Of a stretch of 64,000 nucleotides of DNA, positions 6,969-43,502 are shown in pieces. The notes under the pieces were generated by a model that worked only from the letters and a program-made list of their open reading frames with translations, was not told the origin of the DNA and ran no database searches. Position 1 is the first letter of the stretch; the number at the start of each line of letters is the position of its first letter. The stretch lies in IMG/VR virus record IMGVR_UViG_3300017990_000016; one strand, given 5' to 3'. The DNA is from a virus. Made by a program: the position numbers and the translations under genes.

Positions 6969-6969
6969 T

Positions 6970-8277: not shown

Positions 8278-8278
8278 T

Positions 8279-9169: not shown

Positions 9170-9173
9170 AACA

Positions 9174-9302
9174 ATGAATGTTTGGCAGCTTCAAAGAAAG
9201 CTTGAGGAACTAGAAAGAGAAATAGAATACTGGAAAAAAGCGCACTTAAAATTACAAGAACAATTTATACGACATGTGGATAAAGGTGGAAAGAATGAAT
9301 GA
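9174..9302 (+). CDS. unlisted small coiled-coil protein (42 aa)
   Basis: ATG 9174 to TGA 9300-9302. The next start overlaps as ATGA. Confidence 0.3.
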   Translation: MNVWQLQRKLEELEREIEYWKKAHLKLQEQFIRHVDKGGKNE

Positions 9303-9507
9303 AAAAATTATAATTGGACAGCCAAAAAATAAGTTTAGAGTGTATATTAGACAAACAAAAGAAAGGGATAAAATGGATACACATTCAACTAGTTTTATGG
9401 TATATGATTTCAAAGGTAATATGACTATAGATAAATTAAAGATAGCACTTAAAAGTATTATAAAAAACTCAAAAAGGAAGAAAGAACATCAGAGGCGAGG
9501 AGAATGA
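9295..9507 (+). CDS. hypothetical small protein
   Basis: Starts at MNEKIIIG. The preceding part of the track ORF overlaps the upstream gene. Confidence 0.4.
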   Translation: MNEKIIIGQPKNKFRVYIRQTKERDKMDTHSTSFMVYDFKGNMTIDKLKIALKSIIKNSKRKKEHQRRGE

Positions 9508-9695
9508 AATCAGAGGCAGAAGAATTTAAGAAACATTATATCAAGTTTATTAAGAAGTTAGGATTAACTAAGTCTTTATCTGAGATTTTATTGTTGAAGT
9601 TTAATGAATATGGAGATTTGAGGGCGAAGGAAGAACAAGAGAAGATGGAGAAAGGTTGGTATTTTGAGAAAGAGCTCAAGCGAGGGAAAGAATGA
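9504..9695 (+). CDS. hypothetical small protein
   Basis: 63 aa, preceded by GGCGAGGAGAATG. Confidence 0.4.
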   Translation: MKSEAEEFKKHYIKFIKKLGLTKSLSEILLLKFNEYGDLRAKEEQEKMEKGWYFEKELKRGKE

Positions 9696-11831: not shown

Positions 11832-12049
11832 TTTGCTCTATTAACTATTACACTTACAACTAATCCCATTGTAGTACCAAGGAATATAGCATAAGATATT
11901 GTTCCAAGTATTACCCAAGTGGGATTACTATAATAGCTGCTTATTCCGTTCATAGTTCTTTGTATCGTAGCATAAACTAGTGCTGCTCCCGATATTAACC
12001 ATAACGACCAAGCTATTATTTTCCACATTAATTTATTATTTTTTGCCAT
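11828..12049 (-). CDS. small two-TM membrane protein
   Basis: 73 aa with two hydrophobic helices. Confidence 0.4.
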   Translation of the reverse strand: MAKNNKLMWKIIAWSLWLISGAALVYATIQRTMNGISSYYSNPTWVILGTISYAIFLGTTMGLVVSVIVNRAK

Positions 12050-18000: not shown

Positions 18001-19035
18001 ATATTGAGAGTTGAAAGCTTGAGACCAAGAACCAGATTCACCTGTCCAATTATAATATGGAGTTTGATATGTATTATAAATTAAACCATATCCCATTGAA
18101 TAATAAGTACCATCATCATCATCTGAAACTCCTGAAGTTATATCAGTTACAGTTACAAATTGGTCATCAGGTCCATAAAAATCTGCTCCATTTTGAAGCC
18201 ATTCTGCAGGACTTGGAGAATAATCAACTGTATATAATGGGTCTACATATATATTATTAGAAGCACCATAACCTATAGTACCAACTAACAATCCTTTTAT
18301 TGAACCCATTTCTGCAACTTCCATTAAGCTAGTTGTTCCTTCTGGCATATCTGTCCAATCAAAATGATGTCCAATTCTTTCTTGAAGTGCATTATAAAAA
18401 CTGAAATGTTTACTTACCGAATATGGTCCTTCAACTCCTACTAAATCTATCCATTGGTCACCATCATAAATATATCTAAATTTGTTTGGGTCATCTGGAA
18501 TAAAGAAATAACCAAATCCAGTATCTGTAGGAGAAACTCCATTAATAGTGATATTGATAGTAATTTTAGTTTCAGCAGTTTCATTCATATCAAGTTTAAA
18601 TTCATGAATATCTATATCTGCAGTTCCAGTTGAACTTAAATCATCATATCTATAACAAGTAAAAGTTCCAGAACCATTAGCAGTTAATGATAACTCTTGC
18701 GTAGAAGGTGTAACATCATAAGTACCCGAATTTCTTAAAGGACATAAATACCATTTAGAATTAGCAGGATGTTTGAAAGCAGGAACGAAAAACATTTTTC
18801 CTATAAATTCATTATCTTTAGCAAGACCTATTTCTCCTGGCGAAGTTTTACTAACTCCTATATAATCAGCTGAATTATCTACACTATTAACTTTCAAGTA
18901 CCACCAATCAGAATTTTGACCTGCTTCTATATATCTTTGTGACATTGGAGTATACATTTCTCCAAAAACTAAGGGAAGTGAGATTAATGAAACTAATAAT
19001 ATTACTAGAACTAAGTTATGTTTGCGGTTAACCAT
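12049..19035 (-). CDS. giant secreted surface protein (2328 aa) with internal ~180-aa tandem repeats and C-terminal TM anchor
   Basis: Signal peptide MVNRKHNLVLVILLVSLISLPLVFG. At least 4 repeats carry the core IY[DSG]YLQNT[IL]YP[EA][IV]D and heptad-like N/I/L-rich segments. Many N-x-S/T sequons. C-terminal helix PVLFAASFMMFLVVFVRRK. Confidence 0.85.
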   Translation of the reverse strand: MVNRKHNLVLVILLVSLISLPLVFGEMYTPMSQRYIEAGQNSDWWYLKVNSVDNSADYIGVSKTSPGEIGLAKDNEFIGKMFFVPAFKHPANSKWYLCPLRNSGTYDVTPSTQELSLTANGSGTFTCYRYDDLSSTGTADIDIHEFKLDMNETAETKITINITINGVSPTDTGFGYFFIPDDPNKFRYIYDGDQWIDLVGVEGPYSVSKHFSFYNALQERIGHHFDWTDMPEGTTSLMEVAEMGSIKGLLVGTIGYGASNNIYVDPLYTVDYSPSPAEWLQNGADFYGPDDQFVTVTDITSGVSDDDDGTYYSMGYGLIYNTYQTPYYNWTGESGSWSQAFNSQYNDTSYASATADETHQFYNFDFDIPPSSIIDNITVRIDAWKANAGQDIYFDSIELSYDNGTTWTDPQSISSLTTSEVTYLRHGLWGRAWTYDEINEQLRVRIDPKGIGTARIDWVSVKVDYSVADVNNSNYTTMNGKWSQTYDISKNWYLRLRKISSGVAQIFVYPYINDTHINVSEGTSKYLPGTGWFNIPVDDLMAWQIDQGFNYTTLRFGSTTGEHDISEMRLREEAGDVEDPVITNCSINDTYLYGAETVRIQCYYSDNSDVESVEGVVSGATYNFTQLDGIWHQDLTCGDDIDDGDYNWASTTAYDLAGNDATETPNLDFTCIYNHDPVIEYVTLPTSCRHDCVVTFNVSDNESDQVNISGFTWDIVIPYAHFDHPLPSQYLTDLNTSPTGLEYEIVVNLSAFGVIVYPLVYTTIEVMDEYGDTDSASSGYCSMNNYPRNLEVDTGSSYGRGDDFLIVIEVTEFSGVAVTVGNITIDIYYPNMTIWMEELQTIVSEGNGHHYYNGTIPNLAPYGDYFVTVHYEEDYGHNMFQVKPYHDYIEDILADLDELNISLDNSTYEILTSINTTTQDVKNYLINNIYPEIDEIEELVGNLSIDMQNNFTHTLQEMDNNFTLVFQRLDQIDENITEIDNSLIALDLLVNDVNSTLYYEININEQKLDDLHTNVSYIRSYLVNQIQDSLNAINLTTENIYDYLQTDMFNLLIQINTTVDDIYDYLQNTLYPEVDNAEEKLDELLVNTSNIWTELVSVHSDVTQNYNELQLVKSMISNVNTTLKNEIDENEAKLVIIDSVVDLILEKINQTIIPSLDNIENNISDMQIDLDTIKGYTDSLETGQQYILNNLTFIENRIDDIDNDIADVKSNLLNVNGSLHSRFDIIDINISEIIEVIWTLEWKLDCNNSVNRICDKLDNLQTSAEQINTTVNDIEVYLQVNMTNDLSYIINVVNQINATTTSIYSYLQNTIYPEIDQTEELLGNVLTNTSNIWDKLLVIENQSVDNYNEIIVVETMITSVNDTLNNVETNIINEIDENEGILNGINSTVENIQTRILTIVEPALTNIQNNITDMQLDLEIIKNYTDTLEGGQVDILNNLSAIEGQIANLNTTFSADLSSLNTSLHNRFDTIDINLSSIRTEVEYIEAKLDCNHTTNIVCDKLDNLQVSITQVNTTSNSIKSYLEGTVTNYLININATVEDIYGYLQNTIYPAIDEVELKLNQTLDNHTILYNKMIEIQGNVTTNYNEIQVAQNLIYLTNISLHSKLDAVNLSIVNEVNENEVKIDAVNSTVEIIKNLLQTVIQPQLDDIENNITDMQNDFEILKVGQTNILNNISLTETNILNELNSIYASMNLSFNNTLSAISNVNSTLLYELGLINSTLYNELQIIKAYTDTLESGQQTILDAINASELRIISNITNATSTILQNLTDLSLTIEVDLDNLSDEVIEAINDTENNIINNMTVLLNDTETTILTNLSIEIGNLETNVINEIDITEQNIINNLTQIETNLNVSLTNIENKIDAINSSINVLQLSIDSLNGSLYQQFNNLQVNITDILNAIDDVELEFNCSQTNESICDILINVRNNTIQINNTLNELQLVVEGNWSTYFTDINYTVHSIDDYITNTMYPTIVEYFENATIATLTDMVRVVITERYSTELTVYNPYWNNIAPDSVPLISLYDSTGAVIVTDANMTLVETGIYNYNYTVAASANPGTWTSVVKVTVNGEEQKIYDKWYVVSNPTEITIEAVSLCGNTVTADIRITNEGTTSYEYIYNYWTTDNPFANYEDSDVYDRGQASKLIQPGKTFVTRVYLQRPDTNNVHYVRARVYYGEYSFATDSFTNQLKCIERNTITALLPLEIEPAKIEDMIKATPVLFAASFMMFLVVFVRRKTWERIRKSKENPIYIWYNHPSEVNLYIIVENKFTVELREHNPDREFGKGKIIYRNDFDSLKDAKKFAKIYMEENPEGPDYVKSKYTVKDQKPIAEEEA

Positions 19036-23801: not shown

Positions 23802-24018
23802 TTTTCAACACCCTGTGATATTTTCCTTGTATATAAAATGCAACCATCAATAATATGAATGAAAGTAATAGTCCAACTGAAGCAAATAAAAAGAACCATA
23901 ATTGGTTCTTAAAAATAGATGTAATATAAACTACAAAAAAGCATATAAAAGAAACACTTAACAATATGTATATGCCTTTAAGCAATATCCTCAAAGAGAT
24001 TCCATTCGTCTTCATCAT
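23740..24018 (-). CDS. small two-TM membrane protein
   Basis: 92 aa. Confidence 0.4.
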   Translation of the reverse strand: MMKTNGISLRILLKGIYILLSVSFICFFVVYITSIFKNQLWFFLFASVGLLLSFILLMVAFYIQGKYHRVLKSGKRDDSENEIEDNNIISQD

Positions 24019-24688
24019 GTTCTATCATTATGTAAAAGTCATTTGCCAAATCAACAGCAAATTTCTTATCATATTTTTCTCCCCTTGAAATCCAAGGTAC
24101 TATAGCTATACAATGTCTATGTTCAAGTGAGCATGATAATTGACTTTTTATACCTACAGTATTCAGCATTGCAACATACATGTTAGCCAAATTATCACAA
24201 TCACCACCATTATGGTATGTATACAAAGGTGAGTATATAGCTCTATGATAGCTGTTTGGCACATATCTAACTTTTTCTCTTAGTCTGTTATACAATTCTA
24301 AAGAATAACAATCACTATCATCACCGTGACAAGGTTTTGTAAGTTTAATTGTTAAATCTCTTATATCATCTGCTTCTTGTCTGTTAATAGGAGCATAAGT
24401 ATTTTTTGTAAGTTCAGTAACCATAAAATTAGGACCAACAATAAAAAATAAAACAATAGCTGCTATACCTACAGCAGCTAGAAAATTCATTATGACTGCA
24501 TTTATTATACTAAAGATACTTTCTATTGTAGTAGGTTTTTCTTCATGTCCACATTTATTGCATTTATATTTTATCAAATTTACTTTCAAGTTCATATTTC
24601 TTGCCTCTAAAACTTTTATTTGGTTTCCATAATACTGTACGCCCTTTTTCTCCTTTCGGTTTAGGTGGTATTTCTTGTAAATTGGCAT
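23978..24688 (-). CDS. membrane-anchored transglutaminase-like cysteine protease superfamily protein with N-terminal Zn ribbon
   Basis: CNKCGHEE, then a TM. GGDCDNLANMYVAMLNTVGIKSQLSCSLEHRHCIAIVPW matches the TGase-like core (G-x-C...A-x-L...GI...H...V). Start may be an internal Met. Confidence 0.5.
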   Translation of the reverse strand: MPIYKKYHLNRKEKKGVQYYGNQIKVLEARNMNLKVNLIKYKCNKCGHEEKPTTIESIFSIINAVIMNFLAAVGIAAIVLFFIVGPNFMVTELTKNTYAPINRQEADDIRDLTIKLTKPCHGDDSDCYSLELYNRLREKVRYVPNSYHRAIYSPLYTYHNGGDCDNLANMYVAMLNTVGIKSQLSCSLEHRHCIAIVPWISRGEKYDKKFAVDLANDFYIMIEHDEDEWNLFEDIA

Positions 24689-24705: not shown

Positions 24706-25176
24706 TTAAGATTCTTTGCTCCCATAATATAATACCCCCCTGTTTTTCTTATAACTATCAAATAATCTGTTAATATAATCTATCATTTCTTTTCTTGAAT
24801 TACAAAAAACAAATCTTACTCCATATTTCAATTCAAGAGTGTGACAAATCTTTAGTACTGTCTCTCCTTTAGTTTTGCACTTAGTTACTAACCAAGTGAA
24901 GTCTCTTACTGTTGTATATGAGCATTCTATTAAAATATATAAAAGTATCTTATTGTCTATTGCTCTTTGAATTTCTTTTTTGAATCTTTTATGTCCGCTA
25001 GTTACAGTAGCAATTAAATCTTCGGGACTCTTACGCTCAACACTTATTTTTTGTAATTCACCATCAATTTCTAATCCATAATCTCCGACATTCAGTTTTT
25101 TGTATTTTCTTGTTTTTGAAGTTCCTACTGAAAGTGGCAATTGCTCTCTAGTATCAACTATATATTTTATTGTCAT
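24706..25176 (-). CDS. ERCC4/XPF-Mus81-Hef-type nuclease domain protein
   Basis: VDTREQ...VGDYGL...ERKSPEDLIATVTSG matches the ERCC4 nuclease signature (ERKxxxD). Confidence 0.55.
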   Translation of the reverse strand: MTIKYIVDTREQLPLSVGTSKTRKYKKLNVGDYGLEIDGELQKISVERKSPEDLIATVTSGHKRFKKEIQRAIDNKILLYILIECSYTTVRDFTWLVTKCKTKGETVLKICHTLELKYGVRFVFCNSRKEMIDYINRLFDSYKKNRGVLYYGSKES

Positions 25177-25786: not shown

Positions 25787-26756
25787 ACAATCCTTCTAAA
25801 TAAAGTGCTTCGCATTTTGGAAATACTAAATCTCTATTATACACATAATCCATAACCTTAACTTTGAGCCAATGTCGATAATTATTTTTTAGACCATCTG
25901 TTCTTGGGTATCTTTCCCAATATTTTTTAGCTAACTCTCTTATTAGTTTCTTTGGAAATCCTTTTTCTTTCATCCAAACTGTAGCAAAAAATCTTGCTCT
26001 GTATACAGCTTTTTCTTTTTTAGTTAACCACCCTAATACACAAGGTGGAATACCTTTGCTGTTATACCTATATTCAATATCATCAGGAACTTCAACATCT
26101 TCACATCTAGGAGCTTCAATATCATAATTTTTCATATCAAGTCTTTCATTACCATATACATAGAATTTGAATTGTTGTGTTTTAGCTATCTCTTTTATAT
26201 GGTCTAAACCTTTATTTATATCTTCAATAGAAATTGGAATACAAAATAATTCTCTTGTCATATCATAACTACCAGGCAATCTTGCAACTCTGGCTGTATC
26301 ACCAATAATATGATAATCAATATCATTAATATGCGGGTCAACTACACCTTTTTCATTTTTCTTATTAAAAGTAAGTTTTGCTTTTTTAGCAATATCAATC
26401 TGTGCTAACCTCAATGCATATTTAGGGCTTTTTAATCCTGAACCATTTTTAGCTAATATATATGCCCAGAATCCGCCAGTTGAAAATATGAAAGTCCTTT
26501 TCAAGTCCTCTTTTTCACATACTTTATTTATTCTCTTTAATACTGAAATTGCATCTTTACTATCAATATCAAATGATATTAAATTAATATTTGTCTCATC
26601 AAACATTCCTTCTTCATTACATTTATATACTGAATAATATATTTTTGCTTTTAGCCCATTTACCGAATTGAATACTCTGTAAAACTCTTCTTTGTCTTTA
26701 CAAGTTCTTCTGAAAGGATAAGCAATTTGCCTGGGAAAAGTTCTTAGCAAAATCAT
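25713..26756 (-). CDS. archaeo-eukaryotic primase (AEP; PriS/PrimPol-like) with C-terminal Zn cluster
   Basis: Motif I LISFDIDS (DxD). Motif II FSTGGFWAY (sGxGxH-like). Motif III IIGDTARVARLPGSYD (D..R..R.PGS). C-terminal CEALYLEGLCDGKCKY. Confidence 0.65.
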   Translation of the reverse strand: MILLRTFPRQIAYPFRRTCKDKEEFYRVFNSVNGLKAKIYYSVYKCNEEGMFDETNINLISFDIDSKDAISVLKRINKVCEKEDLKRTFIFSTGGFWAYILAKNGSGLKSPKYALRLAQIDIAKKAKLTFNKKNEKGVVDPHINDIDYHIIGDTARVARLPGSYDMTRELFCIPISIEDINKGLDHIKEIAKTQQFKFYVYGNERLDMKNYDIEAPRCEDVEVPDDIEYRYNSKGIPPCVLGWLTKKEKAVYRARFFATVWMKEKGFPKKLIRELAKKYWERYPRTDGLKNNYRHWLKVKVMDYVYNRDLVFPKCEALYLEGLCDGKCKYFGTANLYFDRRYENGTQ

Positions 26757-29092
26757 GTATAATCACCCAAATTACTTTGGCCTCTTATTTTTTGTCTTAT
26801 ATCTTCAACATTAAGGTTTATTATTTTACAAACTTGGTCAATTTTCATGAACATAATTCTGTCTAATTGTTTTGCCCAATCAATTTTGAAATGATTTAGC
26901 ATTGTTTTTTGTGAACCTAAATCAAAAGCAACAATATCAGTTTCTGGCACTTGTTTATCTTTATTTTTCACGTACATAATTTTAATGTAATCAGTTCTTT
27001 TGAAATGAGTTCCAAGATATTTATTTGAATATTTAGCAGCTCTTACATGATATGCGTTACCTTCATATTCCTCTAATTTTTTGGCTATTCTAATTGTGAA
27101 TCCAATATCCATTAAGTCTTGTTTTTTGCAATTCTTGATTGTATCTTTAATATAATCTCTAAGCTCTTCTTTTGTTTTTAAGTCAAGAACCTTCCTATAA
27201 AAATTCACTAAAAACTTCCTCATATATAGTGGTGTGTCTCTTTTTATTCCTTCAAATCCTGTAATTCTTACAACTGGTTCTATGAACTTATCTCCATCAT
27301 GAACAAGCAAAGCAAAATACCGTGCTTCTGCCTCTGTGAATACTGCGCTTTTAAAGAATTTCTCAAAATCTATTTCTATGAAATTGTTTGTAATACCAAA
27401 TTTTTCTGTATATTTTTTTACTCTTTCATTGATTTTATCTTGAAGTTCTTTTGCCTTTTCAATACATGTTTCAATAGAAAAATCATCTGGCAATTTAACC
27501 ATTACCGAGTCCGTATGCCCATACACAACCTCATATCCAAGCTCTTCACATACTTTTTTACTTACCTTAAATAAATTCCTACCAACATACGTAATTGTGC
27601 TTGCAATATCTCTATCATACAACCTAAAGTTAGTATAGCCAAATACTCCATAAAAGCTATTTACTATAGTTTTTATACTTGTTTCTTTATCATAAGCTGC
27701 AAGATATTCAATAGAATTAAATTTTAATTTATTCCTTTCTTTCTTCCATTTGTATCTTTCTGCAATTAAGTTCTTTACTATTTTACTAGCAAAACCTTCT
27801 TTGTCTAATGAAAATTTTACATTGTTGACTTCAATATTATTGCCCTCAATATTCTTAACTTCAGGACTAGTATTGAATGTAATCATTATACTTGGGTACA
27901 TAGATTTAAAATCAAATCCTGCTACATTTTTTACTAATCCAACTCCTTTTGTATAAATCTCTGCACCTTCATATTTCTCATTATCTACAAACCTATTAGC
28001 AGTTGGCAATATAATATTATTGTCTTTAGCATATTTCAATATATAGTTATCAATCAATCTTGAACTTGTCATCACATCTTCCATACTACAAAATCCCATT
28101 TTCTTGATTTCATTCATAAAATTGAATAGCTTTAATTTATCTTCAATTGCTAAAAGCAATTCTACATCTCTTTGATTATATTCAATTGTTTTGTTTAAGT
28201 CTTTTACCCACATATCTGCTAAACTCATATCATCATCAAGCTGATATTTTTGGCCAAGTTCTTCGTACTCAGATACTGCTTTTAAAGAATAGCTTTCTAA
28301 TTTTTTTGATGGATTAAATGCTTTGATATATTGAAACTTTATGTAGACTTTCATCAAATCAATCAAATCAATTCCGTCAATAGATATTGAAATATTATCA
28401 TCAAACTTATTCAACTTAACCCAATTGAATCTTGACATTTTCATTGGATTGACATGAAGTTTTTTCATCCTATTAATAATATAATGAAAGTCAAAATTGA
28501 TGACATTCCATCCTGTAATAATTTCTGGCCAAGTGTGTCTTAAATATCTAATAAACATTTCTAACATATCTTTCTCTTTATTGAAAAAATATGTTGTTCT
28601 TTCTTCAGTCTTTTCAATCCTATCTTTTTGGTCTTGCCTCCAAGTAAATACAAAATATTTTTTTAGAATTGTATCGTAACATGTCATTACCGTAATTGGA
28701 TATTTTGCTTCCTCTGGATGTGGAAATCCTTCACGAGCATCACATTCAATATCTATATAACAAATTCTATACTCATAATTATGTTTGTTATGGTCTACTC
28801 TATCAATCAAATACCTATTACGATATAATACATCACCTTCAAAAGTATCAGTATAATATTCGCGTAATTGTCTAATGTAGAACGGTCTTCGTGCTATTAT
28901 CTTTTTTAGCTTATCACCAAAAATAGAATAATATTCACCATATTCTTCTTTTACTATTCTATGGTCTTTTAAGCTCTCCTCATTTTCTTTGACGAAAAAG
29001 TAAGGTTGAAAATCACTGATTTTCCGTACTATCTTTTTACCATTTTCCCTGTATATTTCATACACAAGGCTCCCATAAGTTTTTATTATCAT
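26753..29092 (-). CDS. polB: family-B DNA polymerase (exonuclease-proficient)
   Basis: Exo I YIDIECD, Exo II GWNVINFDFHY, Exo III YNQRDVELL. Pol A DFKSMYPSIM, Pol B KTIVNSFYG, Pol C YGHTDSVMV. Confidence 0.9.
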   Translation of the reverse strand: MIIKTYGSLVYEIYRENGKKIVRKISDFQPYFFVKENEESLKDHRIVKEEYGEYYSIFGDKLKKIIARRPFYIRQLREYYTDTFEGDVLYRNRYLIDRVDHNKHNYEYRICYIDIECDAREGFPHPEEAKYPITVMTCYDTILKKYFVFTWRQDQKDRIEKTEERTTYFFNKEKDMLEMFIRYLRHTWPEIITGWNVINFDFHYIINRMKKLHVNPMKMSRFNWVKLNKFDDNISISIDGIDLIDLMKVYIKFQYIKAFNPSKKLESYSLKAVSEYEELGQKYQLDDDMSLADMWVKDLNKTIEYNQRDVELLLAIEDKLKLFNFMNEIKKMGFCSMEDVMTSSRLIDNYILKYAKDNNIILPTANRFVDNEKYEGAEIYTKGVGLVKNVAGFDFKSMYPSIMITFNTSPEVKNIEGNNIEVNNVKFSLDKEGFASKIVKNLIAERYKWKKERNKLKFNSIEYLAAYDKETSIKTIVNSFYGVFGYTNFRLYDRDIASTITYVGRNLFKVSKKVCEELGYEVVYGHTDSVMVKLPDDFSIETCIEKAKELQDKINERVKKYTEKFGITNNFIEIDFEKFFKSAVFTEAEARYFALLVHDGDKFIEPVVRITGFEGIKRDTPLYMRKFLVNFYRKVLDLKTKEELRDYIKDTIKNCKKQDLMDIGFTIRIAKKLEEYEGNAYHVRAAKYSNKYLGTHFKRTDYIKIMYVKNKDKQVPETDIVAFDLGSQKTMLNHFKIDWAKQLDRIMFMKIDQVCKIINLNVEDIRQKIRGQSNLGDYT

Positions 29093-29095
29093 TGA

Positions 29096-29557
29096 TTATA
29101 ATCCTAATGAAATAATCACCCTTTGAGCAGCTTTGTCTGGTTTTGTTGCTGTAGTTTCAACTATTAAGGGTACAATATTTGTTGATTTGTAATAATAATC
29201 ATAAAGATTCATTAAAGGTAAAATATCATCTGGCGTAATATCAGTCTCATTCCTTTCTTTCATTCTTTTCATTATTACTGAAGGTGTGGCTGTTGTATAC
29301 ACAAAAAATACTTCATCAACTAAATCAAGTTCATTGACTAAATCAATATATGATTTATAGAATGAATGTCTTTTGTGTGAGCCATAAACCATATTTGTAA
29401 ATGGTCCCCTATCAATAAGTATATGTTTGAATTCTGTTTTTTCGTGTATGTTCTGTATTAATGTTGATTTTCCAGTACAATCAACTCCATCAAAAAATAT
29501 AATCTTAGTTTTTGTTTGTAAGTCAAAATTGGAAATTGGACAAGGTACTTTTATCAT
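29096..29557 (-). CDS. (d)NMP kinase, thymidylate-kinase-like
   Basis: P-loop FFDGVDCTGKST. DRGPFTNMVYGS resembles the TMK DRY/S motif. Confidence 0.55.
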   Translation of the reverse strand: MIKVPCPISNFDLQTKTKIIFFDGVDCTGKSTLIQNIHEKTEFKHILIDRGPFTNMVYGSHKRHSFYKSYIDLVNELDLVDEVFFVYTTATPSVIMKRMKERNETDITPDDILPLMNLYDYYYKSTNIVPLIVETTATKPDKAAQRVIISLGL

Positions 29558-30140
29558 TTTTTATGCTTTCCTCCAGTTTGTTTAATTCCTCAATTTCCTG
29601 TTCAACAGCTCTATCTGATTTGAACCTGAAATAGTATGATGGGTGATTTATGTGAAAAGTTCTGTGTTGTAGATTGAATCTTTCAAGATGCTTTTTTACT
29701 AAGTGCCCCATTGATACAATATAATGAGGTTTTATTACACCTATTTCCAATTCAAGTAGGTATCTACAAGTATTTATATATTTATCTTTCAATTCTGTAT
29801 TTTTGTCCGTAGAGCATTTCACCAAGTTAGTTATGAAAATTGTATATTTCATTAGTTTGGTCTTCCTCAAAACATAGTCAAAAAAATCCCCCGATGTTTG
29901 TATGTCTTTTAGATTCTTACTTGGTGATACTCCTTCAAATGCTCTACGTTTATCATCAAATCTGCGGTAACTTGGATTCATTCCTATAAGCAATAATTTT
30001 TTTGAACCTATAACTTTATTCTTTAGATTAGTCAATAATTTACCATATTCAGGATGTTCCTTTGTGTGAACATTATATACTAAAGTATTCAGTTCACATT
30101 TCTTACAGGAATCGATTGCTTCAAATACTCTGTTTGGCAT
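29523..30140 (-). CDS. uracil-DNA glycosylase family-4-like protein
   Basis: N-terminal CKKCE plus two distal Cys. LLLIGMNPS...RRAFEG resembles GEGPG...PFVG. C-terminal HINHPSYYFR matches the HPS motif. Confidence 0.5.
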   Translation of the reverse strand: MPNRVFEAIDSCKKCELNTLVYNVHTKEHPEYGKLLTNLKNKVIGSKKLLLIGMNPSYRRFDDKRRAFEGVSPSKNLKDIQTSGDFFDYVLRKTKLMKYTIFITNLVKCSTDKNTELKDKYINTCRYLLELEIGVIKPHYIVSMGHLVKKHLERFNLQHRTFHINHPSYYFRFKSDRAVEQEIEELNKLEESIKNDKSTLSNFQF

Positions 30141-30487
30141 CTTATAATTTCACCTTTTTTCCTATACTCAATATAATGTAAGTATTCTAATACTTTCATT
30201 GGATAAAAATAATAAGTATGATAATCTTTTCTTCTTCCGTAGAATTCTTCTTCTGTTATGTTTAATCCCTTTCTTTCAATAATTTCAGAAAATATTTTTT
30301 TTGCATTTGTTGAATTATTATTTTCAGTTAAATCATTAATTATATCTTTAACAAATTCAACATCTTTATTTAAAGTTCTATGGGCATCTTGTTCTATTTT
30401 TCCACTTCTTCTAAACGAAAAACCTACCCAAGTATCTTTTGAGCCATCATACTTGAATTCCATTTTATATCCCATCTTAAACACCAC
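30089..30487 (-). CDS. hypothetical protein
   Basis: 132-aa ORF. Overlaps the UDG-like start. Confidence 0.4.
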   Translation of the reverse strand: MVFKMGYKMEFKYDGSKDTWVGFSFRRSGKIEQDAHRTLNKDVEFVKDIINDLTENNNSTNAKKIFSEIIERKGLNITEEEFYGRRKDYHTYYFYPMKVLEYLHYIEYRKKGEIIRCQTEYLKQSIPVRNVN

Positions 30488-30617: not shown

Positions 30618-31598
30618 TTATTTTTTACTAAATAGCTCTTTATCAATTGGGTCCAAATCATCCCATTCTAAATCTTTCCAATTAGGACCTGGTATTTTGA
30701 TATTCAATTTTCTAGCTACATAATCAAGGTTAGTACAAGGTTCTTGATTTAAAGCTATACCTTTCTGCATTGTAATATCTTCTTGAGTTGCATGTCTACC
30801 ATCTGAAATATGTGGTATACCAAGTATCTCCCAAAATCCATTAACTGCAAGTGTAGTATCCTTTCTTGACCAATCACATGTTGGCCTCATATAATGCGCA
30901 AGTAAAGGAAATGCCTTTAAAACTTCATCACGCAATTTATATGCAATTCCAACACAATCTTCCATCTCAGTTGTTTGCATTCTTCTAGAACATAATTCTT
31001 GTAGTGCTTTATAATTAATACTCATTATGAATCTGTGTGATGCGTATAATCCTGTAGCACATCTAGCAGCCCAATTTGGTATCCCAGCTTTTTGAATTTG
31101 TTTGTATAGACTTTTATTCCTTCCAACAACCCATTTGTATTTTTCTGCTGACTCTGTATCCTTAATTCTTGAAGGTATAATATAATCAAGGTGGTTTAAG
31201 TCATTATCTTTCCATCCTTTACTAGCAAATACCACACCAATTCTAGCTCTTGCAATTTGGTCAAAAACTGCTCTTGAACAATTCTCAATACTAAAAGCAA
31301 AAGCTGGTGCTTCAAGTGCTAACGGAAGTGCCTTCCTGTCAAGTACACTTTTGACAACATAAAATCTTGATATTGGACTTAAATTCTCCCATTTATCATT
31401 GTATGTTCCCCAAGTACAAAGTGCCATATTACACATTGTCTTATATGGATTTATTGAATTATCAGTAAGCTCAACTTTCAAATCTTTCAAATCCAAGAAT
31501 CTAGTCTTAGTTTCTTTTTCTTCATAACAAGCTTTTTTGATTTCTTCTCTCGTATTTTCATTCAACATCTTCTCTACCTCCAATTTTATCGACATCAA
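30618..31598 (-). CDS. ThyX (flavin-dependent thymidylate synthase)-like protein, divergent
   Basis: FSIENCSRAVFDQIARARIGVVFAS aligns to the ThyX SRA..Q..RHR(x7)S block, but RHR is replaced by RAR. SINYKALQELCSRRMQ aligns to the ThyX NxRELxxFxxLR block. Confidence 0.6.
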   Translation of the reverse strand: MMSIKLEVEKMLNENTREEIKKACYEEKETKTRFLDLKDLKVELTDNSINPYKTMCNMALCTWGTYNDKWENLSPISRFYVVKSVLDRKALPLALEAPAFAFSIENCSRAVFDQIARARIGVVFASKGWKDNDLNHLDYIIPSRIKDTESAEKYKWVVGRNKSLYKQIQKAGIPNWAARCATGLYASHRFIMSINYKALQELCSRRMQTTEMEDCVGIAYKLRDEVLKAFPLLAHYMRPTCDWSRKDTTLAVNGFWEILGIPHISDGRHATQEDITMQKGIALNQEPCTNLDYVARKLNIKIPGPNWKDLEWDDLDPIDKELFSKK

Positions 31599-32091
31599 GT
31601 TTCATCATAATTTCTTCCATTCTTTTTACTGAACCTTCATATACTTCTCTCATATAACCTTCATTTCCAAGCTTAATTTCGCTTTGGCTATATTGTATAC
31701 AACTTATAATGTCAGCAAGCTGGACAATCAATCCCTCTGTAGTTTCTCCGGTATTAAACTCATCATTCAACTTTCCAAGGTCTTTTCCAAAGTATTTTTC
31801 CCAGACAATTTTTTCAGCATCAGTAATTGCTTCTTTAATTTTAGGAAACATCTTACTTACATTGTGTTGGACATCACTTACATAAACTTCAGGTAAATCA
31901 TGTGTGATAGCCATTATCAATGCCTTTTTCAAGTTGAATTCATAATACCTTCGTAATTCCAAGACAATTAATGTAACAAAAGCAGAATGCTCAGCAACAC
32001 TTTCATCTTTTATTCTTATAGAATTATTATACCTAATCAGGTCCCTGAGCTTATAAATCCTATTAGCATAAGTTACTATTTCTTCTCGCAT
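31558..32091 (-). CDS. HD-domain 5'-deoxynucleotidase (YfbR-like)
   Basis: ESVAEHSAFV, AITHDLPEV and IVQLADIIS align with YfbR NVSEHSLQVA, MYHDASEV and VKQADALCA. Confidence 0.75.
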   Translation of the reverse strand: MREEIVTYANRIYKLRDLIRYNNSIRIKDESVAEHSAFVTLIVLELRRYYEFNLKKALIMAITHDLPEVYVSDVQHNVSKMFPKIKEAITDAEKIVWEKYFGKDLGKLNDEFNTGETTEGLIVQLADIISCIQYSQSEIKLGNEGYMREVYEGSVKRMEEIMMKLDVDKIGGREDVE

Positions 32092-32098
32092 TTTTCAC

Positions 32099-32530
32099 CT
32101 ATTCTATTTTTCCTTCGTAAGGTTCTCTAAATTCTCCTTCTCTCAGAAATCTCTTGATTGCCTTTTTGAGTTGTTCATACGTAGTCGTTGCTATCATTCC
32201 ACTCGAACTCAACATTAAATTGAATTTACCTTTTACATGTTGATTAAAGTATATTATTGGAACGTCGACAGCATATGCCACACCCGCCTCAAAGATTGTT
32301 CCCATATCTTTATTGTTTGTATTACAGATTATAAAATCCGCCCCATTTATTTCTGTAATATTTTGATGGAAAATTTCCATTCGGGTCTTATCATCAGCAT
32401 CTGGTGGACATATTATTTCGTCTTTTGGAGAATAGAATTTAACCTTTAATTCACGTAATATCTTCTTAATCTCCTCAACTTCTTCAAGCTGTTCTGGATT
32501 AAAGAATGGACTTGCTATGTAACATCTCAT
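32099..32530 (-). CDS. nucleoside 2-deoxyribosyltransferase (NDT) family protein
   Basis: CYIASPFFNPEQ (compare IYFGAGWFTDRQ). DMGTIFEAGVAYA (compare DVGLGMELGYA, the catalytic Glu context). Confidence 0.65.
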   Translation of the reverse strand: MRCYIASPFFNPEQLEEVEEIKKILRELKVKFYSPKDEIICPPDADDKTRMEIFHQNITEINGADFIICNTNNKDMGTIFEAGVAYAVDVPIIYFNQHVKGKFNLMLSSSGMIATTTYEQLKKAIKRFLREGEFREPYEGKIE

Positions 32531-41574: not shown

Positions 41575-42274
41575 AAAAGGCAAATTTTTCATAGCTGTAA
41601 TAATATTTTTAGTAGTTATTATAGCAGTATCTTTCTTCTTTAAGCTATATTCCATTTGGAGTTTGGTCGGTATGATATTTTACACAATAGTATTTTTTGT
41701 ATTATATTTATTCATATTATATGAAGGTAGAAGATTGGAGATTGAAAAACATAATTATGAGGAGAAAAAGCAATCATTTAAATGGTGCTGGAATAAGATT
41801 AATGAAGTTCTAAGAAAAATGCCAGGTGGAGAAGGTGTTGAATGGGAAGGTGGATTTGGTAAAAGAAGTGAGATTAAATATTTCACAGATGGAAAAATTC
41901 AACATCCTTTTAGATATGTATTTGGTAGTTTATCAGAGACAAAACAACCAGTATTGATTATATTCGATATTGACAAAGAAGATATTGCTAGGTATTATGC
42001 AAATCCAACACCAACATTAATTGAAAATCCGTTCAATGGATTTAAACCTTTTGCTACTTATGATAGAGATAGGTCTGGTTATAGAGACTGGATGTTTGGT
42101 AGAGATAGAAGAAGAGGTTTTTACCCAAGTTCTTATGGACAAGGAGTTAGTGAATTAGGTCCCGGTAAAGAAGCTGAGTACTCTGAATTTCCAATTTCTC
42201 CTTCTGAAAATCAAGTTGGAAGAGCAGTTGATAAACTGAAAGAATCAGATGAACGCAGACAGAGAGACAAGTAA
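41558..42274 (+). CDS. membrane protein (2 N-terminal TM) with soluble domain
   Basis: 238 aa. Confidence 0.5.
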   Translation: MVYVDEKGKFFIAVIIFLVVIIAVSFFFKLYSIWSLVGMIFYTIVFFVLYLFILYEGRRLEIEKHNYEEKKQSFKWCWNKINEVLRKMPGGEGVEWEGGFGKRSEIKYFTDGKIQHPFRYVFGSLSETKQPVLIIFDIDKEDIARYYANPTPTLIENPFNGFKPFATYDRDRSGYRDWMFGRDRRRGFYPSSYGQGVSELGPGKEAEYSEFPISPSENQVGRAVDKLKESDERRQRDK

Positions 42275-43502
42275 ATGGAAGACTTTTGGCAATAAGTATA
42301 TGAAAGAGTCTTTCATAAAAAAGAAAGAGAAGATATTAGAATACACTAAAGCCAATTTACTTATAGGCAAAAAATCAAATGGGGCACCTTATTTTTTAGA
42401 TTTAAGAGAAGCTTGTAGGATTATATTAATTGGTGCAACTAGGTCAGGAAAAACATTTGGTATTAGGTCAGTTTGTGACCGACTTAATTTGACTGACCGA
42501 CATATAGTATTTTTGAATGATTGTAAGAATGAGTTTTATAGTTCTCGTGATGAAATTCAACATAAATTTCGTAATTTATTATTTGAAAGTGAAAAACCAA
42601 GAGGAATGAAAATTGTAACTTTGAGACCAACATTCTTTAAGTCTGTAATAAATGATTTGCCACAAGGTAATTTTTGGTTTAGTATAGATTTTAGAGATTT
42701 CACTAGAAATGATTTTATGACAATGATGAATAGTCAAGAACTTACCAATCCGCAAAAAGTCATTATAGAATTATTATATCAAGAACTTCAAAACAGATTT
42801 AAAAGAGATAAAAATCTTAAATTCTCGTTAGACTTGATTAATGAGATTATTGATGAAATTGATGATATAACTTCTCAGCAAAAAACTTCTATGAAATTTA
42901 AATTCAGGCCATTAGAACATAGTCATTTTTATGAAGAACAATTTGATAGGAATATAATAGGTTTATTGAAAAAGGATTATAGTATAGCAATAAATATGGA
43001 GAATTTTGACAGCTTTGGTAAGGGCAATTTTCTGTTTCCTGAAGTAGTATTAAGTGTAGTTGCAAGAAAAGTCATAATGGCCAGAAGAGCAAAGAAAATT
43101 AAAGAAGTCTGGTTGGTAATTGATGAGGCACCAAGGTTTTTAGGTACAGACAAACAAACATCAATAAAGCATTTAGTCAATGAAAGTTTTATGCTGGATA
43201 CTCGTTATGGAGTCAATTATATTATTGCGTCACAAACATATAATATTATTCCACCTGATATGAAAGAGAATTCAAGGTATATTTTTGTACCAAGAAGTGT
43301 TGATGTAAGTGTATTCAAAGATATACTAAATGATACAGGACTAACAAGGAATATTCAAAGCGCAAATAATGATGCAATTAGAATGAAAAGATTAATGAAT
43401 TCAATACCTTTTTCGTGGTTAGTTATAGATAAGTCACACGGAACAAAAGATGTGATTACTTTTTCAGCTCCATTAAGCCGACATATAGAAACTGGCCAAT
43501 AA
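42249..43502 (+). CDS. FtsK/HerA-superfamily P-loop ATPase (candidate DNA packaging or transfer ATPase)
   Basis: Walker A ILIGATRSGKT. Walker B VWLVIDEAPRF. 417 aa. Preceded by membrane proteins. Confidence 0.5.
   Translation: MNADRETSKWKTFGNKYMKESFIKKKEKILEYTKANLLIGKKSNGAPYFLDLREACRIILIGATRSGKTFGIRSVCDRLNLTDRHIVFLNDCKNEFYSSRDEIQHKFRNLLFESEKPRGMKIVTLRPTFFKSVINDLPQGNFWFSIDFRDFTRNDFMTMMNSQELTNPQKVIIELLYQELQNRFKRDKNLKFSLDLINEIIDEIDDITSQQKTSMKFKFRPLEHSHFYEEQFDRNIIGLLKKDYSIAINMENFDSFGKGNFLFPEVVLSVVARKVIMARRAKKIKEVWLVIDEAPRFLGTDKQTSIKHLVNESFMLDTRYGVNYIIASQTYNIIPPDMKENSRYIFVPRSVDVSVFKDILNDTGLTRNIQSANNDAIRMKRLMNSIPFSWLVIDKSHGTKDVITFSAPLSRHIETGQ

What the first reader, a model, noticed from the sequence alone, without database searches (positions are those of the whole stretch)
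30618..31598. ThyX-like protein with the phosphate-binding RHR motif changed to RAR
The protein aligns to two ThyX signature blocks (SRA..Q..R-H-R and N-x-REL..F..LR). The central His of RHR is Ala, and the downstream S-G-R-Y is S-K-G-W. The dUMP-phosphate-binding residues are therefore altered. This suggests a different substrate, such as a nucleoside, a modified dUMP or a polynucleotide, or a different reaction from canonical dTMP synthesis.
Basis: seen in the sequence. Interest (0 to 1): 0.6.

Follow-up and report, generated by a model that had tools for sequence, protein, structure and literature searches.

The report
Divergent ThyX-like enzyme in phage nucleotide operon
A phage gene has the fold of the flavin-dependent thymidylate synthase ThyX and keeps its nucleotide-binding arginines but has replaced the residues needed for the normal methylation chemistry, and it always sits next to nucleotide-degrading enzymes, so it may make something other than ordinary thymidylate, perhaps a modified DNA base.

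Summary

T. maritima S88-G89-R90-Y91 corresponds to G118-W119-K120-D121, not S-K-G-W.

RHR mainly binds the FAD phosphates and ribityl, not the dUMP phosphate. The nucleotide-binding basic residues are kept (R99, R107, K120, R169, R196). The flavin-phosphate, folate-stacking and acid-catalyst residues are lost (H79, S/T55, R165, H53, S88, Y91). Clade-invariant D103, G118 and D121 and a conserved 90-aa C-terminal extension have been gained.

The clade is metagenome-only: 21 clusters among 5.8 billion proteins by word-indexed search, and 55 representatives at E≤1e-30.

In close relatives the gene always follows Ndt and an HD phosphohydrolase. In distant relatives it often directly follows a dUTPase-like/NT5C nucleotidase fusion. 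One lineage also carries a canonical ThyX, next to radical-SAM and aldo-keto-reductase genes.

Best reading (about 0.5): a neofunctionalised uracil-nucleotide C5 enzyme. A plain divergent thymidylate synthase (about 0.28) is not excluded.

The parts
30618..31568 (-). ThyX-like gene (ThyXL), 316 aa from the ATG at 31568. The stop codon at 30618-30620 is included.
31206..31250 (-). Altered ThyX motif R107-A108-R109-I-G111-V-V-F-A-S-K-G118-W-K120-D121. The canonical form is R-H-R-x7/8-S-x-R-Y.
   Evidence: Sequence read directly. Register from the 142-sequence alignment. R107, R109, G111, G118 and D121 are invariant in 21 homologues. Inteins are inserted in this loop in P0026, P0054 and P0059.
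31256..31274 (-). R99 ... D103-Q104. R99 corresponds to the M. tuberculosis R87 dUMP ligand. D103 replaces His/Arg (Tm R74). Q104 corresponds to Tm Q75.
   Evidence: Invariant columns R99, D103 and Q104. Mapping. Role of Mtb R87 (PMC6514825).
30966..31073 (-). Second half of the active site. W166-A-A-R169 corresponds to Tm R147. N185-x-K187 corresponds to Tm N163/R165. R196 corresponds to Tm R174. T199-T200-E201 follow.
   Evidence: The profile-to-PDB alignment shows ...NWaaRcvlP... and ...RlqttE... against T. maritima ...REVARIVLP... and ...LRADSH.... Invariant W166, R169, R196 and E201. Inteins lie between R196 and E201 in P0025, P0034 and L020.
30621..30884 (-). Clade-specific C-terminal extension, residues 229-316. 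C231, D232, S255, R258 and C278 are invariant; H253 and D256 are near-invariant.
31558..32091 (-). HD-domain phosphohydrolase (YfbR-like / OxsA-like) immediately upstream. Its stop overlaps the ThyXL start by 11 nt.
   Evidence: Pfam YfbR-like 3.6e-17 and HD_3 6.4e-13. PHROG 7076 3.6e-18. PDB 2cqz, 1xx7 and OxsA 5tk6. Same position in L001, L004, L025, L026 and L027.
32099..32530 (-). Nucleoside 2-deoxyribosyltransferase-family protein, the first gene of the conserved trio.
   Evidence: Pfam PF05014 3.1e-16. PDB 6evs N-deoxyribosyltransferase 1.6e-11, with the YxASPFFN and DxGTxxExG motifs aligned. Conserved upstream of HD in all six close contexts.
29096..29557 (-). Small P-loop dNK/thymidylate-kinase-like kinase.
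   Evidence: PHROG 761 6.8e-16. Pfam dNK 1.1e-4, below the cut-off. PDB YorR 2axp 4.3e-6. A homologue lies within 10 kb of ThyXL in 11 of 14 non-redundant contexts.
29523..30140 (-). UDG-superfamily protein between ThyXL and the polymerase. It probably belongs with the polymerase rather than with ThyXL.
   Evidence: Pfam UDG 9.5e-14. It follows ThyXL in L001, L004, L026 and L027. It is fused to PolA in L007.
30089..30487 (-). 132-aa ORF of unknown function between ThyXL and UDG. It is not conserved in relatives.
   Evidence: No Pfam or PHROG match. No homologue in the related loci.
26753..29092 (-). Family B DNA polymerase at the downstream end of the module.
   Evidence: Pfam DNA_pol_B 4e-33 and exo1 3.4e-23.

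Best explanation
ThyXL is a catalytically active, neofunctionalised member of the ThyX (Thy1) fold. It most likely still binds a uracil (deoxy)nucleoside monophosphate next to a flavin isoalloxazine. It no longer performs the folate-dependent reductive methylation that gives dTMP.

The proposed product is a different 5-substituted pyrimidine nucleotide. 5-Hydroxymethyl-dUMP (methylene transfer without the final reduction) or 5-hydroxy-dUMP (flavin/O2 hydroxylation) are the simplest candidates.

The proposed pathway:
- The P-loop kinase encoded nearby phosphorylates the product for incorporation by the phage polymerase.
- The co-transcribed hydrolases drain the competing canonical nucleotide. 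In the window these are the HD phosphohydrolase plus the deoxyribosyltransferase-family enzyme. In distant relatives they are a dUTPase-like/NT5C fusion.

Shown:
- the fold;
- which residues are kept and which are replaced;
- clade-wide invariance of the replacements;
- the operon linkage;
- co-occurrence with a canonical ThyX in one lineage.

Inferred:
- flavin retention;
- uracil-nucleotide substrate;
- the product;
- the role of the partner enzymes;
- any DNA modification.
For: 1. Selective loss. The nucleotide-side residues are R99, Q104, R107, R109, R169, R196 and K/R120. All are invariant except position 120, which is K or R. The canonical H53, S/T55, H79, S88, Y91 and R165 are replaced. 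The replacements D103, G118 and D121 are themselves invariant across 21 homologues at 36-70% identity and define a 54-representative clade. Ser88 and Tyr91 are reported as strictly conserved and critical, and H53 as the folate/flavin stacking residue (PMC11940539). The RHR His, S71 and R190 (Mtb) bind the FAD phosphates and ribityl (PMC6514825).
2. Gained extension. A conserved 90-aa C-terminal extension carries invariant C231, D232, S255, R258 and C278.
3. Inteins. They are inserted at four or more different points, all within the two core motifs. This is typical of functionally constrained active sites.
4. Operon linkage. Ndt->HD->ThyXL is conserved in 6 of 6 close contexts despite different polymerases, PolB or Pol III alpha. 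In distant members a dUTPase_2+NT5C fusion takes that place, overlapping ThyXL by 4 bp in L028. A dNK/Tmk-like kinase lies nearby in 11 of 14 contexts.
5. Paralogy. L009 and L011 carry ThyXL and also a canonical ThyX. The L009 copy scores Pfam 6.7e-42 with H53, RHR and S-T-R-Y intact. Aldo/keto reductase and radical-SAM/SPASM genes lie just upstream of ThyXL in L009.
6. Precedents. Phage SP-15 (hypermodified thymine) encodes two Thy1 proteins. Its authors propose that the divergent one makes hmdUMP. SP-15 also encodes Ndt, an HD 5'-nucleotidase and UDG (PMC5977210). Phage ThyA homologues have become flavin-dependent 5-hydroxy-dCMP synthases (PMC13326640).
7. Base composition. Contigs carrying the clade span 23-71% GC. 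The module is therefore not simply an AT-rich-genome adaptation.
Against: - No biochemical or DNA-composition data exist for any member.
- dUTPase-like, dCMP deaminase (L007, L010, L020) and thymidylate-kinase-like genes are also the ordinary dTTP supply pathway. The neighbourhood is therefore compatible with a plain thymidylate synthase.
- The 64-kb window shows no other ThyA or ThyX, so ThyXL could be this phage's only thymidylate synthase.
- Co-occurrence with canonical ThyX was seen in only one lineage (L009/L011, which are closely related), and only +/-10 kb of each contig was inspected.
- S88 mutants of T. maritima ThyX are reported to retain some activity (my recollection of Koehn et al. 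2009, not checked here).
- The window has no glycosyltransferase, radical-SAM or other hypermodification gene among the 57 ORFs scanned.
Confidence: 0.5

Rival explanations
1. It is still the phage's thymidylate synthase (dUMP -> dTMP). It is a very divergent ThyX in which other residues (D121, K79, the C-terminal extension) took over the roles of Y91, S88 and H53. The neighbouring genes are ordinary dTTP-supply and salvage enzymes.
For: - The ThyX fold is present and every nucleotide-binding Arg is kept.
- It is the only thymidylate-synthase-like gene found in the 64-kb window.
- The neighbours are dUTPase-like, dCMP deaminase and Tmk/dNK-like kinase, which is the classical dTTP pathway.
- Databases annotate relatives as thymidylate synthase.
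- Other non-canonical RTR-type ThyX-like proteins occur in cultured phages (Pbunavirus, Wifcevirus, Serratia MTx) for which I know of no DNA modification.
- The central His of RHR is replaceable in otherwise canonical ThyX.
Against: - Six residues that canonical ThyX conserves from Thermotoga to Mycobacterium to phages are lost together, and the replacements are fixed within the clade.
- Y91F alone slows flavin oxidation about 1000-fold (PMC11940539).
- L009 and L011 keep a canonical ThyX alongside ThyXL.
- The tight coupling is to enzymes that destroy dNMPs (HD, NT5C domain), which is counter-productive for dTMP supply.
Confidence: 0.28
2. It acts on a different substrate class, or is not a C5-transferase at all. 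Possibilities are dCMP (the new D103/D121 reading a cytosine amino group, T4-like logic), a deoxynucleoside produced by the HD/NT5C phosphatase, or a non-redox or regulatory nucleotide-binding protein.
For: - Two new invariant acidic residues sit in the pocket: D103 at the His/Arg74 position and D121 at Y91. S88 is replaced by Gly.
- An upstream phosphatase and a deoxyribosyltransferase would generate nucleosides, and the kinase's best Pfam match is deoxynucleoside kinase.
- L009/L011 resemble the T4 layout of a thymidylate synthase plus a second pyrimidine enzyme.
- Three flavin-phosphate ligands are missing (PMC6514825).
Against: - R196 corresponds to Tm R174, which in my understanding polarises uracil O4. 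It is invariant, along with Q104. That favours uracil over cytosine (inference).
- Three of the four phosphate ligands are kept as R99, K/R120 and R169, which argues against a phosphate-free substrate.
- Strong conservation of the motifs and intein targeting argue against a non-catalytic protein.
Confidence: 0.17
3. It is a decaying pseudogene, or the motif differences are an alignment artefact.
For: Similarity to PDB ThyX is low: phmmer found nothing and the family profile reached only 4e-4.
Against: - The ORF is intact, with an RBS.
- There are 21 homologue clusters at 36-70% identity with 37 invariant columns.
- There are 55 representatives at E<=1e-30.
- The register is supported by a continuum of intermediate sequences.
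Confidence: 0.02

Closest known systems
Canonical flavin-dependent thymidylate synthase ThyX (Thy1, PF02511; T. maritima TM0449, M. tuberculosis Rv2754c, H. pylori, PBCV-1 A674R)
   Different: - RHR->RAR.
- S88->G, Y91->D, H53->K, S/T55->L and R165 variable.
- His/Arg74->D.
- A one-residue insertion after RxR-I.
- About 90 extra conserved C-terminal residues with two invariant Cys.
- Only 13-18% identity to solved ThyX structures in the structural alignments.
PolB, the UMP/dUMP C5-methylase of polyoxin biosynthesis (PDB 4p5a), a neofunctionalised ThyX paralogue
   Different: PolB still methylates UMP and dUMP (PMC5954106), and to my knowledge does so by ThyX-type flavin/folate chemistry. ThyXL has lost the residues tied to that chemistry and occurs in phage replication modules, not antibiotic clusters.
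Bacillus phage SP-15 gp130, a divergent Thy1 protein hypothesised to be a hydroxymethyl-dUMP synthase
   Same: It is a second, aberrant Thy1-family protein in a phage with hypermodified thymine. That genome also has PF05014 Ndt (gp127), HD 5'-nucleotidase (gp90) and UDG (gp100) (PMC5977210). It is a structural match in BFVD.
   Different: There is no significant sequence similarity to ThyXL (blastp E=0.064). gp130 lacks even the RxR motif. Its function is itself only a hypothesis.
Neofunctionalised ThyA-family enzymes of phages (T4 gp42 dCMP hydroxymethylase, SPO1-type dUMP hydroxymethylase, RB69/DLP3 5-hydroxy-dCMP synthase)
   Same: The proposed logic is the same: a thymidylate-synthase relative makes a non-canonical pyrimidine dNMP in the pool, alongside a dNMP kinase and enzymes that remove the canonical nucleotide. 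The 5-hydroxy-dCMP synthases even use a flavin (PMC13326640).
   Different: These have an unrelated fold (ThyA, not ThyX). Their activity is demonstrated experimentally, whereas ThyXL's is not.
Other non-canonical ThyX-like proteins of cultured phages (Wifcevirus Bas99_0050, Pbunavirus, Serratia MTx, Streptomyces 'ThyX-like thymidylate synthase')
   Same: They are also RTR-type with SxRY degraded (Bas99: R-T-R...T-S-R-A) and with a Cys-containing C-terminal tail. In Bas99 the gene is next to a kinase and a reductase.
   Different: Bas99_0050 is only 20% identical to the window protein over 159 aligned residues (blastp E=3.9e-6). These proteins have His at position 74, where ThyXL has Asp. A clade member (P0039) finds no match in 50,697 phage records, and the window protein finds only four weak Bacillus-phage hits.

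Membership tests
ThyX / flavin-dependent thymidylate synthase (EC 2.1.1.148) | Thy1/ThyX fold | tested here: met
ThyX / flavin-dependent thymidylate synthase (EC 2.1.1.148) | ThyX signature RHR-x7/8-S-x-R-Y | tested here: not met
   The motif reads R107-A-R109-x8-G118-W-K120-D121. His, Ser and Tyr are all replaced in every one of 21 homologues.
ThyX / flavin-dependent thymidylate synthase (EC 2.1.1.148) | dUMP-binding basic residues (Mtb R87, R95, R107, R172, R199; Tm R78, R90, R147, R174) | tested here: met
   R99, R107, K120 (K or R in the clade), R169 and R196; all but 120 are invariant. Roles from PMC6514825.
ThyX / flavin-dependent thymidylate synthase (EC 2.1.1.148) | Folate/flavin-stacking His53 (Tm) | tested here: not met
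   K79, three residues before the invariant Pro82. In the clade this position is K/Q/R/N, with His in 1 of 54. Role from PMC11940539.
ThyX / flavin-dependent thymidylate synthase (EC 2.1.1.148) | FAD phosphate/ribityl ligands (central His of RHR; Mtb S71 = Tm T55; Mtb R190 = Tm R165) | tested here: not met
   A108, L81 and K187 (variable in the clade). Roles from PMC6514825. The isoalloxazine ligands R107 (Tm R78) and T52 (Tm S30) are kept.
ThyX / flavin-dependent thymidylate synthase (EC 2.1.1.148) | NADPH/FAD/CH2THF-dependent conversion of dUMP to dTMP; complementation of thyA | not testable with these tools
   Requires expression and assay.
Nucleotide-pool base-replacement module of phages (T4 / SPO1 type) | A thymidylate-synthase-superfamily enzyme that makes a non-canonical pyrimidine dNMP | tested here: inconclusive
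   The active-site remodelling and the paralogy with canonical ThyX in L009/L011 fit. The product is unknown.
Nucleotide-pool base-replacement module of phages (T4 / SPO1 type) | Enzyme(s) removing the competing canonical dNTP/dNMP | tested here: inconclusive
   Family-level assignments only: HD YfbR/OxsA-like plus Ndt in the window, and a dUTPase_2+NT5C fusion in distant relatives. Specificity is unknown.
Nucleotide-pool base-replacement module of phages (T4 / SPO1 type) | Dedicated dNMP/deoxynucleoside kinase | tested here: inconclusive
   A P-loop dNK/Tmk-like kinase is present in the window and in 11 of 14 contexts. Pfam scores are below the curated cut-off. The substrate is unknown.
Nucleotide-pool base-replacement module of phages (T4 / SPO1 type) | Non-canonical base in virion DNA | not testable with these tools
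   All members are metagenomic contigs. No cultured phage carries the clade.
SP-15 gp130-like divergent Thy1 | Detectable sequence homology to gp130 | tested here: not met
   blastp E=0.064 over 36 residues. gp130 has no RxR motif.

The most novel reading that the evidence does not exclude
ThyXL would be the founding member of a ThyX-fold family of pyrimidine C5 hydroxylases or hydroxymethylases, or another non-methyl C5 transferase. Its product would replace or partly replace thymidine in the DNA of a broad, so far uncultivated set of phages spanning 23-71% GC and using PolA, PolB or Pol III alpha replicases. The hard-wired nucleotide hydrolases (HD+Ndt, or a dUTPase-like/NT5C fusion) would exclude the canonical nucleotide. 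This would be the ThyX counterpart of the ThyA-derived hydroxymethylases and 5-hydroxy-dCMP synthases.
Probability: 0.33. Interest if true: 0.8.

Novelty: new variant of a known kind. Interest (0 to 1): 0.6.

Why it matters
Every phage pyrimidine-replacement pathway at the nucleotide-pool level that I know of, or met in the papers read here, starts from a ThyA-family enzyme. No ThyX-fold enzyme with a product other than (d)TMP or 5-methyl-UMP has been demonstrated, to my knowledge and in four of the seven full-text searches of the paper library aimed at this question.

If the reading is right:
- It would add a second, independent evolutionary route to modified pyrimidines. That route would start from an enzyme that already carries a flavin.
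- It would flag a set of uncultivated phages as candidates for unknown DNA chemistry, which is relevant to restriction/CRISPR evasion and to sequencing and amplification artefacts.
- It would give enzymologists a natural variant in which the folate-stacking His and the Ser/Tyr acid pair are swapped for Lys, Gly and Asp.

There is also a practical point. Automatic annotation of these proteins as 'thymidylate synthase ThyX' is not safe. The signature D-Q-x-x-R-x-R-[IV]-G ... G-x-[KR]-D-N separates them from true ThyX.

Tried and rejected
Searches that found nothing:
- PHROGs has no family for the protein.
- phmmer against the PDB found nothing.
- tblastn against 50,697 phage records gave only four weak Bacillus-phage hits at 25-28% identity over under half the protein.
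- A more central clade member (P0039) gave none.
- Four of the seven full-text paper searches looked for divergent or non-canonical ThyX in phages. They found no description of this clade, only the SP-15 hypothesis and PolB.

Readings considered and dropped:
- Shifted register restoring RHR/SxRY: rejected. The register does shift by two, but the motifs are still not intact.
- Z-genome (DatZ-like HD) reading: nothing supports it. No adenylosuccinate-synthetase-like or MazG hit appeared among 57 scanned window ORFs.
- UDG as part of the ThyXL pathway: more likely polymerase-associated. It is fused to PolA in L007, and a 2025 preprint abstract describes UDG-fused phage PolA enzymes (10.1101/2025.03.26.645540, seen only).
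- The kinase as a 5-hmU DNA kinase of the thymidine-hypermodification pathways: not supported. Its only phage relatives are Bacillus/Geobacillus phage proteins, mostly annotated as Tmk or dNK.
- SP-15 gp130 as a homologue: rejected on sequence.

Not possible:
- The afdb50 fold library was unavailable.
- The model's coordinates are not exposed. I could not inspect where D103, D121, K79 and the C-terminal Cys/His residues sit relative to the pocket.
Full report
**The gene**

The TTG at 31598 is unlikely to be the start. An ATG at 31568 is preceded by GGAGG at the right distance and overlaps the stop of the upstream HD gene by 11 nt. A 316-aa database protein identical to the ATG-initiated product exists (P0001).

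The window is 31% GC, has no tRNA genes, and looks like a highly divergent phage. The minus-strand replication module contains a family B polymerase, ERCC4 nuclease and Sak4/AAA_24. Most other ORFs have no Pfam match.

**Is it ThyX-like?**

Yes, well beyond chance.
- Pfam Thy1 matches at 1.3e-13 across almost the whole profile.
- An AlphaFold2 model built on 21 homologues has mean pLDDT 92.5.
- Foldseek returns ThyX-family structures as its best matches, at E~1e-9.

It is nevertheless remote in sequence.
- There is no PHROG family and no PDB hit by phmmer.
- The family profile reaches PDB ThyX only at 4e-4.

**The motifs**

I then aligned it with 141 ThyX-like representatives that form a continuum from canonical enzymes to the window protein.

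The register is Tm R78-H-R-I-(gap)-A-S-Y-N-E-L-S88-G-R90-Y91 against window R107-A-R-I-G111-V-V-F-A-S-K-G118-W-K120-D121. SGRY, however, corresponds to G-W-K-D, not S-K-G-W. No register leaves the motifs intact.

The remaining mappings:

| T. maritima | Window protein |
|---|---|
| H53 | K79 |
| T55 | L81 |
| R74 (His in most ThyX) | D103 |
| Q75 | Q104 |
| R147 | R169 |
| N163 | N185 |
| R165 | K187 |
| R174 | R196 |
| H178 | T200 |
| Mtb R87 | R99 |

The E58/E86 equivalence is uncertain, because the helix after Pro82 is two residues longer.

**What the changed residues do**

According to the review PMC6514825:
- The RHR motif, Mtb S71 and Mtb R190 hydrogen-bond the FAD AMP-phosphate and the FMN ribityl/phosphate.
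- The first Arg also contacts the isoalloxazine and dUMP.
- dUMP is held by R95, R199, R87, S105 and R107, with Y108 as a lid.

According to PMC11940539:
- Ser88 and Tyr91 are strictly conserved and critical.
- Y91F slows flavin oxidation about 1000-fold.
- H53 stacks on folate or on reduced flavin.
- R78 stabilises the anionic hydroquinone.

Read against this, the window protein keeps the whole nucleotide clamp (R99, R107, K120, R169, R196, Q104) and the isoalloxazine contacts (R107, T52). It has lost the flavin-phosphate ligands, the folate-stacking His and the Ser/Tyr pair.

The inference that the reaction may differ is reasonable, but for other reasons.

**Is it a clade or a one-off?**

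The word-indexed search of 5.8 billion proteins finds only 21 clusters, at 36-70% identity to the window protein. They share 37 invariant columns, including R99, D103, Q104, R107, R109, G111, G118, D121, R169, R196, E201, C231, D232, S255, R258 and C278.

The exhaustive HMM search of 1.84 billion representatives finds 55 at E<=1e-30 and 420 at E<=1e-10. Among the 142 aligned sequences, 54 share the D74/G88/D91 signature. Within those 54:
- position 79 is A24, T9, Q4, S4, N3, H3 and others;
- position 90 is R30 or K23;
- position 53 is K/Q/R/N;
- the C-terminal tail is about 90 residues, against 34.5 in canonical ThyX. It is almost as conserved as the core.

Six otherwise canonical sequences lack His at position 79; examples read K, F and N. 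RAR alone would be weak evidence. The concerted change is what matters.

No cultured phage carries the clade. Other non-canonical ThyX-like types (RTR...TSRA, RTR...GGRDND) occur in Wifcevirus, Pbunavirus, Serratia and Streptomyces phages. The records I inspected are annotated as thymidylate synthase or ThyX-like thymidylate synthase.

**Inteins**

Several clade members are interrupted by inteins at four or more distinct sites, all within the two core motifs:
- inside RxRxGxxF|S (P0026);
- at G|SRDN (P0054);
- after GSRDN (P0059);
- before the RxR helix (P0069);
- between R196 and E201 (P0025, P0034, and L020, where Pfam detects a Hint domain).

Inteins characteristically sit in the most constrained catalytic motifs. 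I take this as evidence against a pseudo-enzyme; this is an inference.

**Genomic context**

In the window the order along the minus strand is:
1. Ndt-family (32099-32530)
2. HD phosphohydrolase (31558-32091)
3. ThyXL
4. a 132-aa unknown
5. UDG
6. a dNK/Tmk-like kinase
7. PolB

. The HD protein is closest to YfbR-like and OxsA-like phosphohydrolases. The Ndt protein is closest to a solved N-deoxyribosyltransferase, with the catalytic-Glu motif aligned.

Five independent contigs carry close relatives (P0016, P0015, P0010, P0007, P0004). All have Ndt -> HD -> ThyXL, sometimes with a kinase or small ORF between HD and ThyXL. In L025 and L026 the HD stop and the ThyXL start overlap by 4 bp. The replicase nearby is PolB in some and Pol III alpha in another.

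Fifteen IMG/VR loci and P0021 carry more distant members. There the HD+Ndt pair is absent. A roughly 320-aa protein that fuses an all-alpha dUTPase_2-like NTP pyrophosphatase domain to an NT5C/HAD 5'-deoxynucleotidase domain occupies the position upstream of ThyXL. I read this as non-orthologous replacement of one nucleotide-degrading function by another. It is the strongest sign that ThyXL is functionally tied to nucleotide catabolism.

Other recurrent neighbours:
- the small kinase, in 11 of 14 non-redundant contexts;
- dCMP deaminase, in three;
- an NAD-dependent sugar epimerase/dehydratase, in four;
- a UDP-galactopyranose-mutase-like flavoprotein, in seven (a weak assignment, 6e-4).

Contigs carrying the clade range from 23 to 71% GC.

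**Paralogy**

L009 and L011 (107- and 111-kb viral contigs) encode ThyXL and, 4.4 kb downstream, a canonical ThyX. The L009 copy scores Pfam 6.7e-42, with GHEAMIEH, RHR-x7-S-T-R-Y and N-L-R ... L-R all intact. In L009 an aldo/keto reductase and a radical-SAM/SPASM enzyme lie immediately upstream of ThyXL.

This is what one expects if ThyXL does something other than make dTMP. The caveat is that it is a single lineage, and only +/-10 kb of each contig was available. The window itself has no second thymidylate-synthase-like gene.

**Precedents**

- Phage SP-15 has part of its thymine replaced by dihydroxypentyluracil. It encodes two Thy1 proteins, and its authors hypothesise that the divergent one (gp130) is a hydroxymethyl-dUMP synthase (PMC5977210).
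- SP-15 also has an Ndt-family gene and a FabG-like reductase next to gp130, plus an HD 5'-nucleotidase and a UDG.
- gp130 is not detectably homologous to ThyXL at sequence level. This is a parallel, not membership.
- Phage ThyA homologues have been shown to be flavin-dependent 5-hydroxy-dCMP synthases (PMC13326640). Thymidylate-synthase scaffolds do get recruited to non-methyl C5 chemistry.

**Mechanistic reading**

*Shown:*
- a ThyX fold with an intact nucleotide clamp;
- a remodelled cofactor and one-carbon side;
- clade-invariant new residues D103, G118 and D121, with Lys or another polar residue at position 79;
- a conserved Cys/His/Asp-bearing extension;
- operon coupling to dNTP/dNMP hydrolases and a kinase.

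*Inferred:*
- The substrate is a uracil mononucleotide. R196, the counterpart of Tm R174, and Q104 are kept. To my knowledge R174 polarises uracil O4.
- A flavin isoalloxazine is still bound, but possibly as FMN or in a different pose.
- Folate is no longer stacked by His53.
- The chemistry ends in something other than a methyl group, for example hydration of the exocyclic methylene to hydroxymethyl, or flavin-hydroperoxide hydroxylation.
- The kinase then activates the product, and the hydrolases deplete the competing canonical nucleotide, as in SPO1/phi-e-type or T4-type pool remodelling (textbook knowledge, not tested here).

I put this at about 0.5.

The main rival (0.28) is that this is simply a very divergent thymidylate synthase embedded in ordinary dTTP-supply genes. 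A different substrate class or a non-C5 function takes most of the rest.

**Verdict**

RAR is real. The SGRY mapping is off by two residues and the start codon is probably wrong. The motifs are genuinely not intact.

A different reaction is plausible, but the 'phosphate-binding residues altered' argument is not.

The protein fails several defining ThyX features and should not be filed as a thymidylate synthase without assay. It is a new variant of a known kind, and a good experimental lead.

Noticed in passing
P0025, P0026, P0034, P0054, P0059, P0069; L020:9947-11392: Inteins interrupt ThyXL-clade proteins at four or more different insertion points, all inside the RxR...GxRDN loop or between R196 and E201. 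In L020 Pfam detects a Hint domain inside the 481-aa ThyXL.
   Followed up: partly
L009:15400-16104 and L011:15382-16104: A canonical ThyX (H53, RHR and S-T-R-Y intact; the L009 copy scores Pfam 6.7e-42) is encoded 4.4 kb downstream of ThyXL in the same viral contigs. L009 also has aldo/keto reductase (7491-8507) and radical-SAM/SPASM (8508-9575) genes just upstream of ThyXL.
   Followed up: partly
L009:5994-6971, L007:9102-9956, L028:3618-4589 and seven others (alignment A3): A roughly 320-aa fusion of an all-alpha dUTPase_2-like NTP pyrophosphatase domain with an NT5C/HAD 5'-deoxynucleotidase domain. In single-protein Pfam scans it is missed (L014) or scores below the curated cut-offs (L009). 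It lies directly upstream of ThyXL in many distant relatives.
   Followed up: partly
L010:5163-5639; L020:4513-4974: Mini ThyA-like proteins of about 155-160 aa. The L010 copy matches only the central part (profile 112-209 of 266) of Pfam Thymidylat_synt at 1.2e-7. Both are next to the small kinase. They are too short to be a normal ThyA.
   Followed up: no
L009:5114-6031 and six others (alignment A2); L007:13705-14604: A roughly 300-aa Rossmann flavoprotein weakly resembling UDP-galactopyranose mutase (6e-4) recurs near ThyXL in distant relatives. So does an NAD-dependent sugar epimerase/dehydratase. This hints at sugar-nucleotide metabolism and possibly DNA glycosylation.
   Followed up: no
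L012:14389-16095 and L012:10919-11659: The UDG gene of this contig carries an intein with a DUF559/Vsr-type endonuclease. A GIY-YIG/NUMOD3 homing endonuclease sits immediately after ThyXL. The module is a hotspot for selfish elements.
   Followed up: no
window 12049-19035 (-): A 2328-aa ORF with no significant Pfam domain (best hits are sub-threshold DUF7310 and MG2).
   Followed up: no
window 42249-43502 (+): A HerA/FtsK-type ATPase (DUF87, 2.8e-9) lies in the plus-strand half. No terminase was recognised in the window, although the related contig L004 has a Terminase_6 gene.
   Followed up: no
window 4684-5565 (-); 7398-7832 (+); 23978-24688 (-); 24706-25176 (-): An SPFH/Band_7 protein (also present near ThyXL in L004), a gamma-glutamyl cyclotransferase-like protein, a transglutaminase-core protein and an ERCC4 nuclease. 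A Phage_integrase hit (2.7e-22) lies in one of the 30 ORFs of alignment A4; I did not locate it.
   Followed up: no
window 29523-30140 (-): The UDG-superfamily protein has an N-terminal C-x2-C and atypical motifs (L-I-G-M-N-P-S and H-I-N-H-P-S) rather than the family-1 or family-4 consensus as I recall them. It overlaps both neighbours, by 52 nt with the 132-aa ORF and by 35 nt with the kinase.
   Followed up: no
L022 (Escherichia phage Bas99, PQ850618) 6001-8428: In the cultured Wifcevirus phage Bas99, the gene annotated 'thymidylate synthase' is a non-canonical RTR...TSRA ThyX-like protein with a Cys-rich tail. It is followed by a polynucleotide-kinase-like gene and a FabG-like reductase. 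A FabG-like reductase also sits next to gp130 in SP-15.
   Followed up: partly
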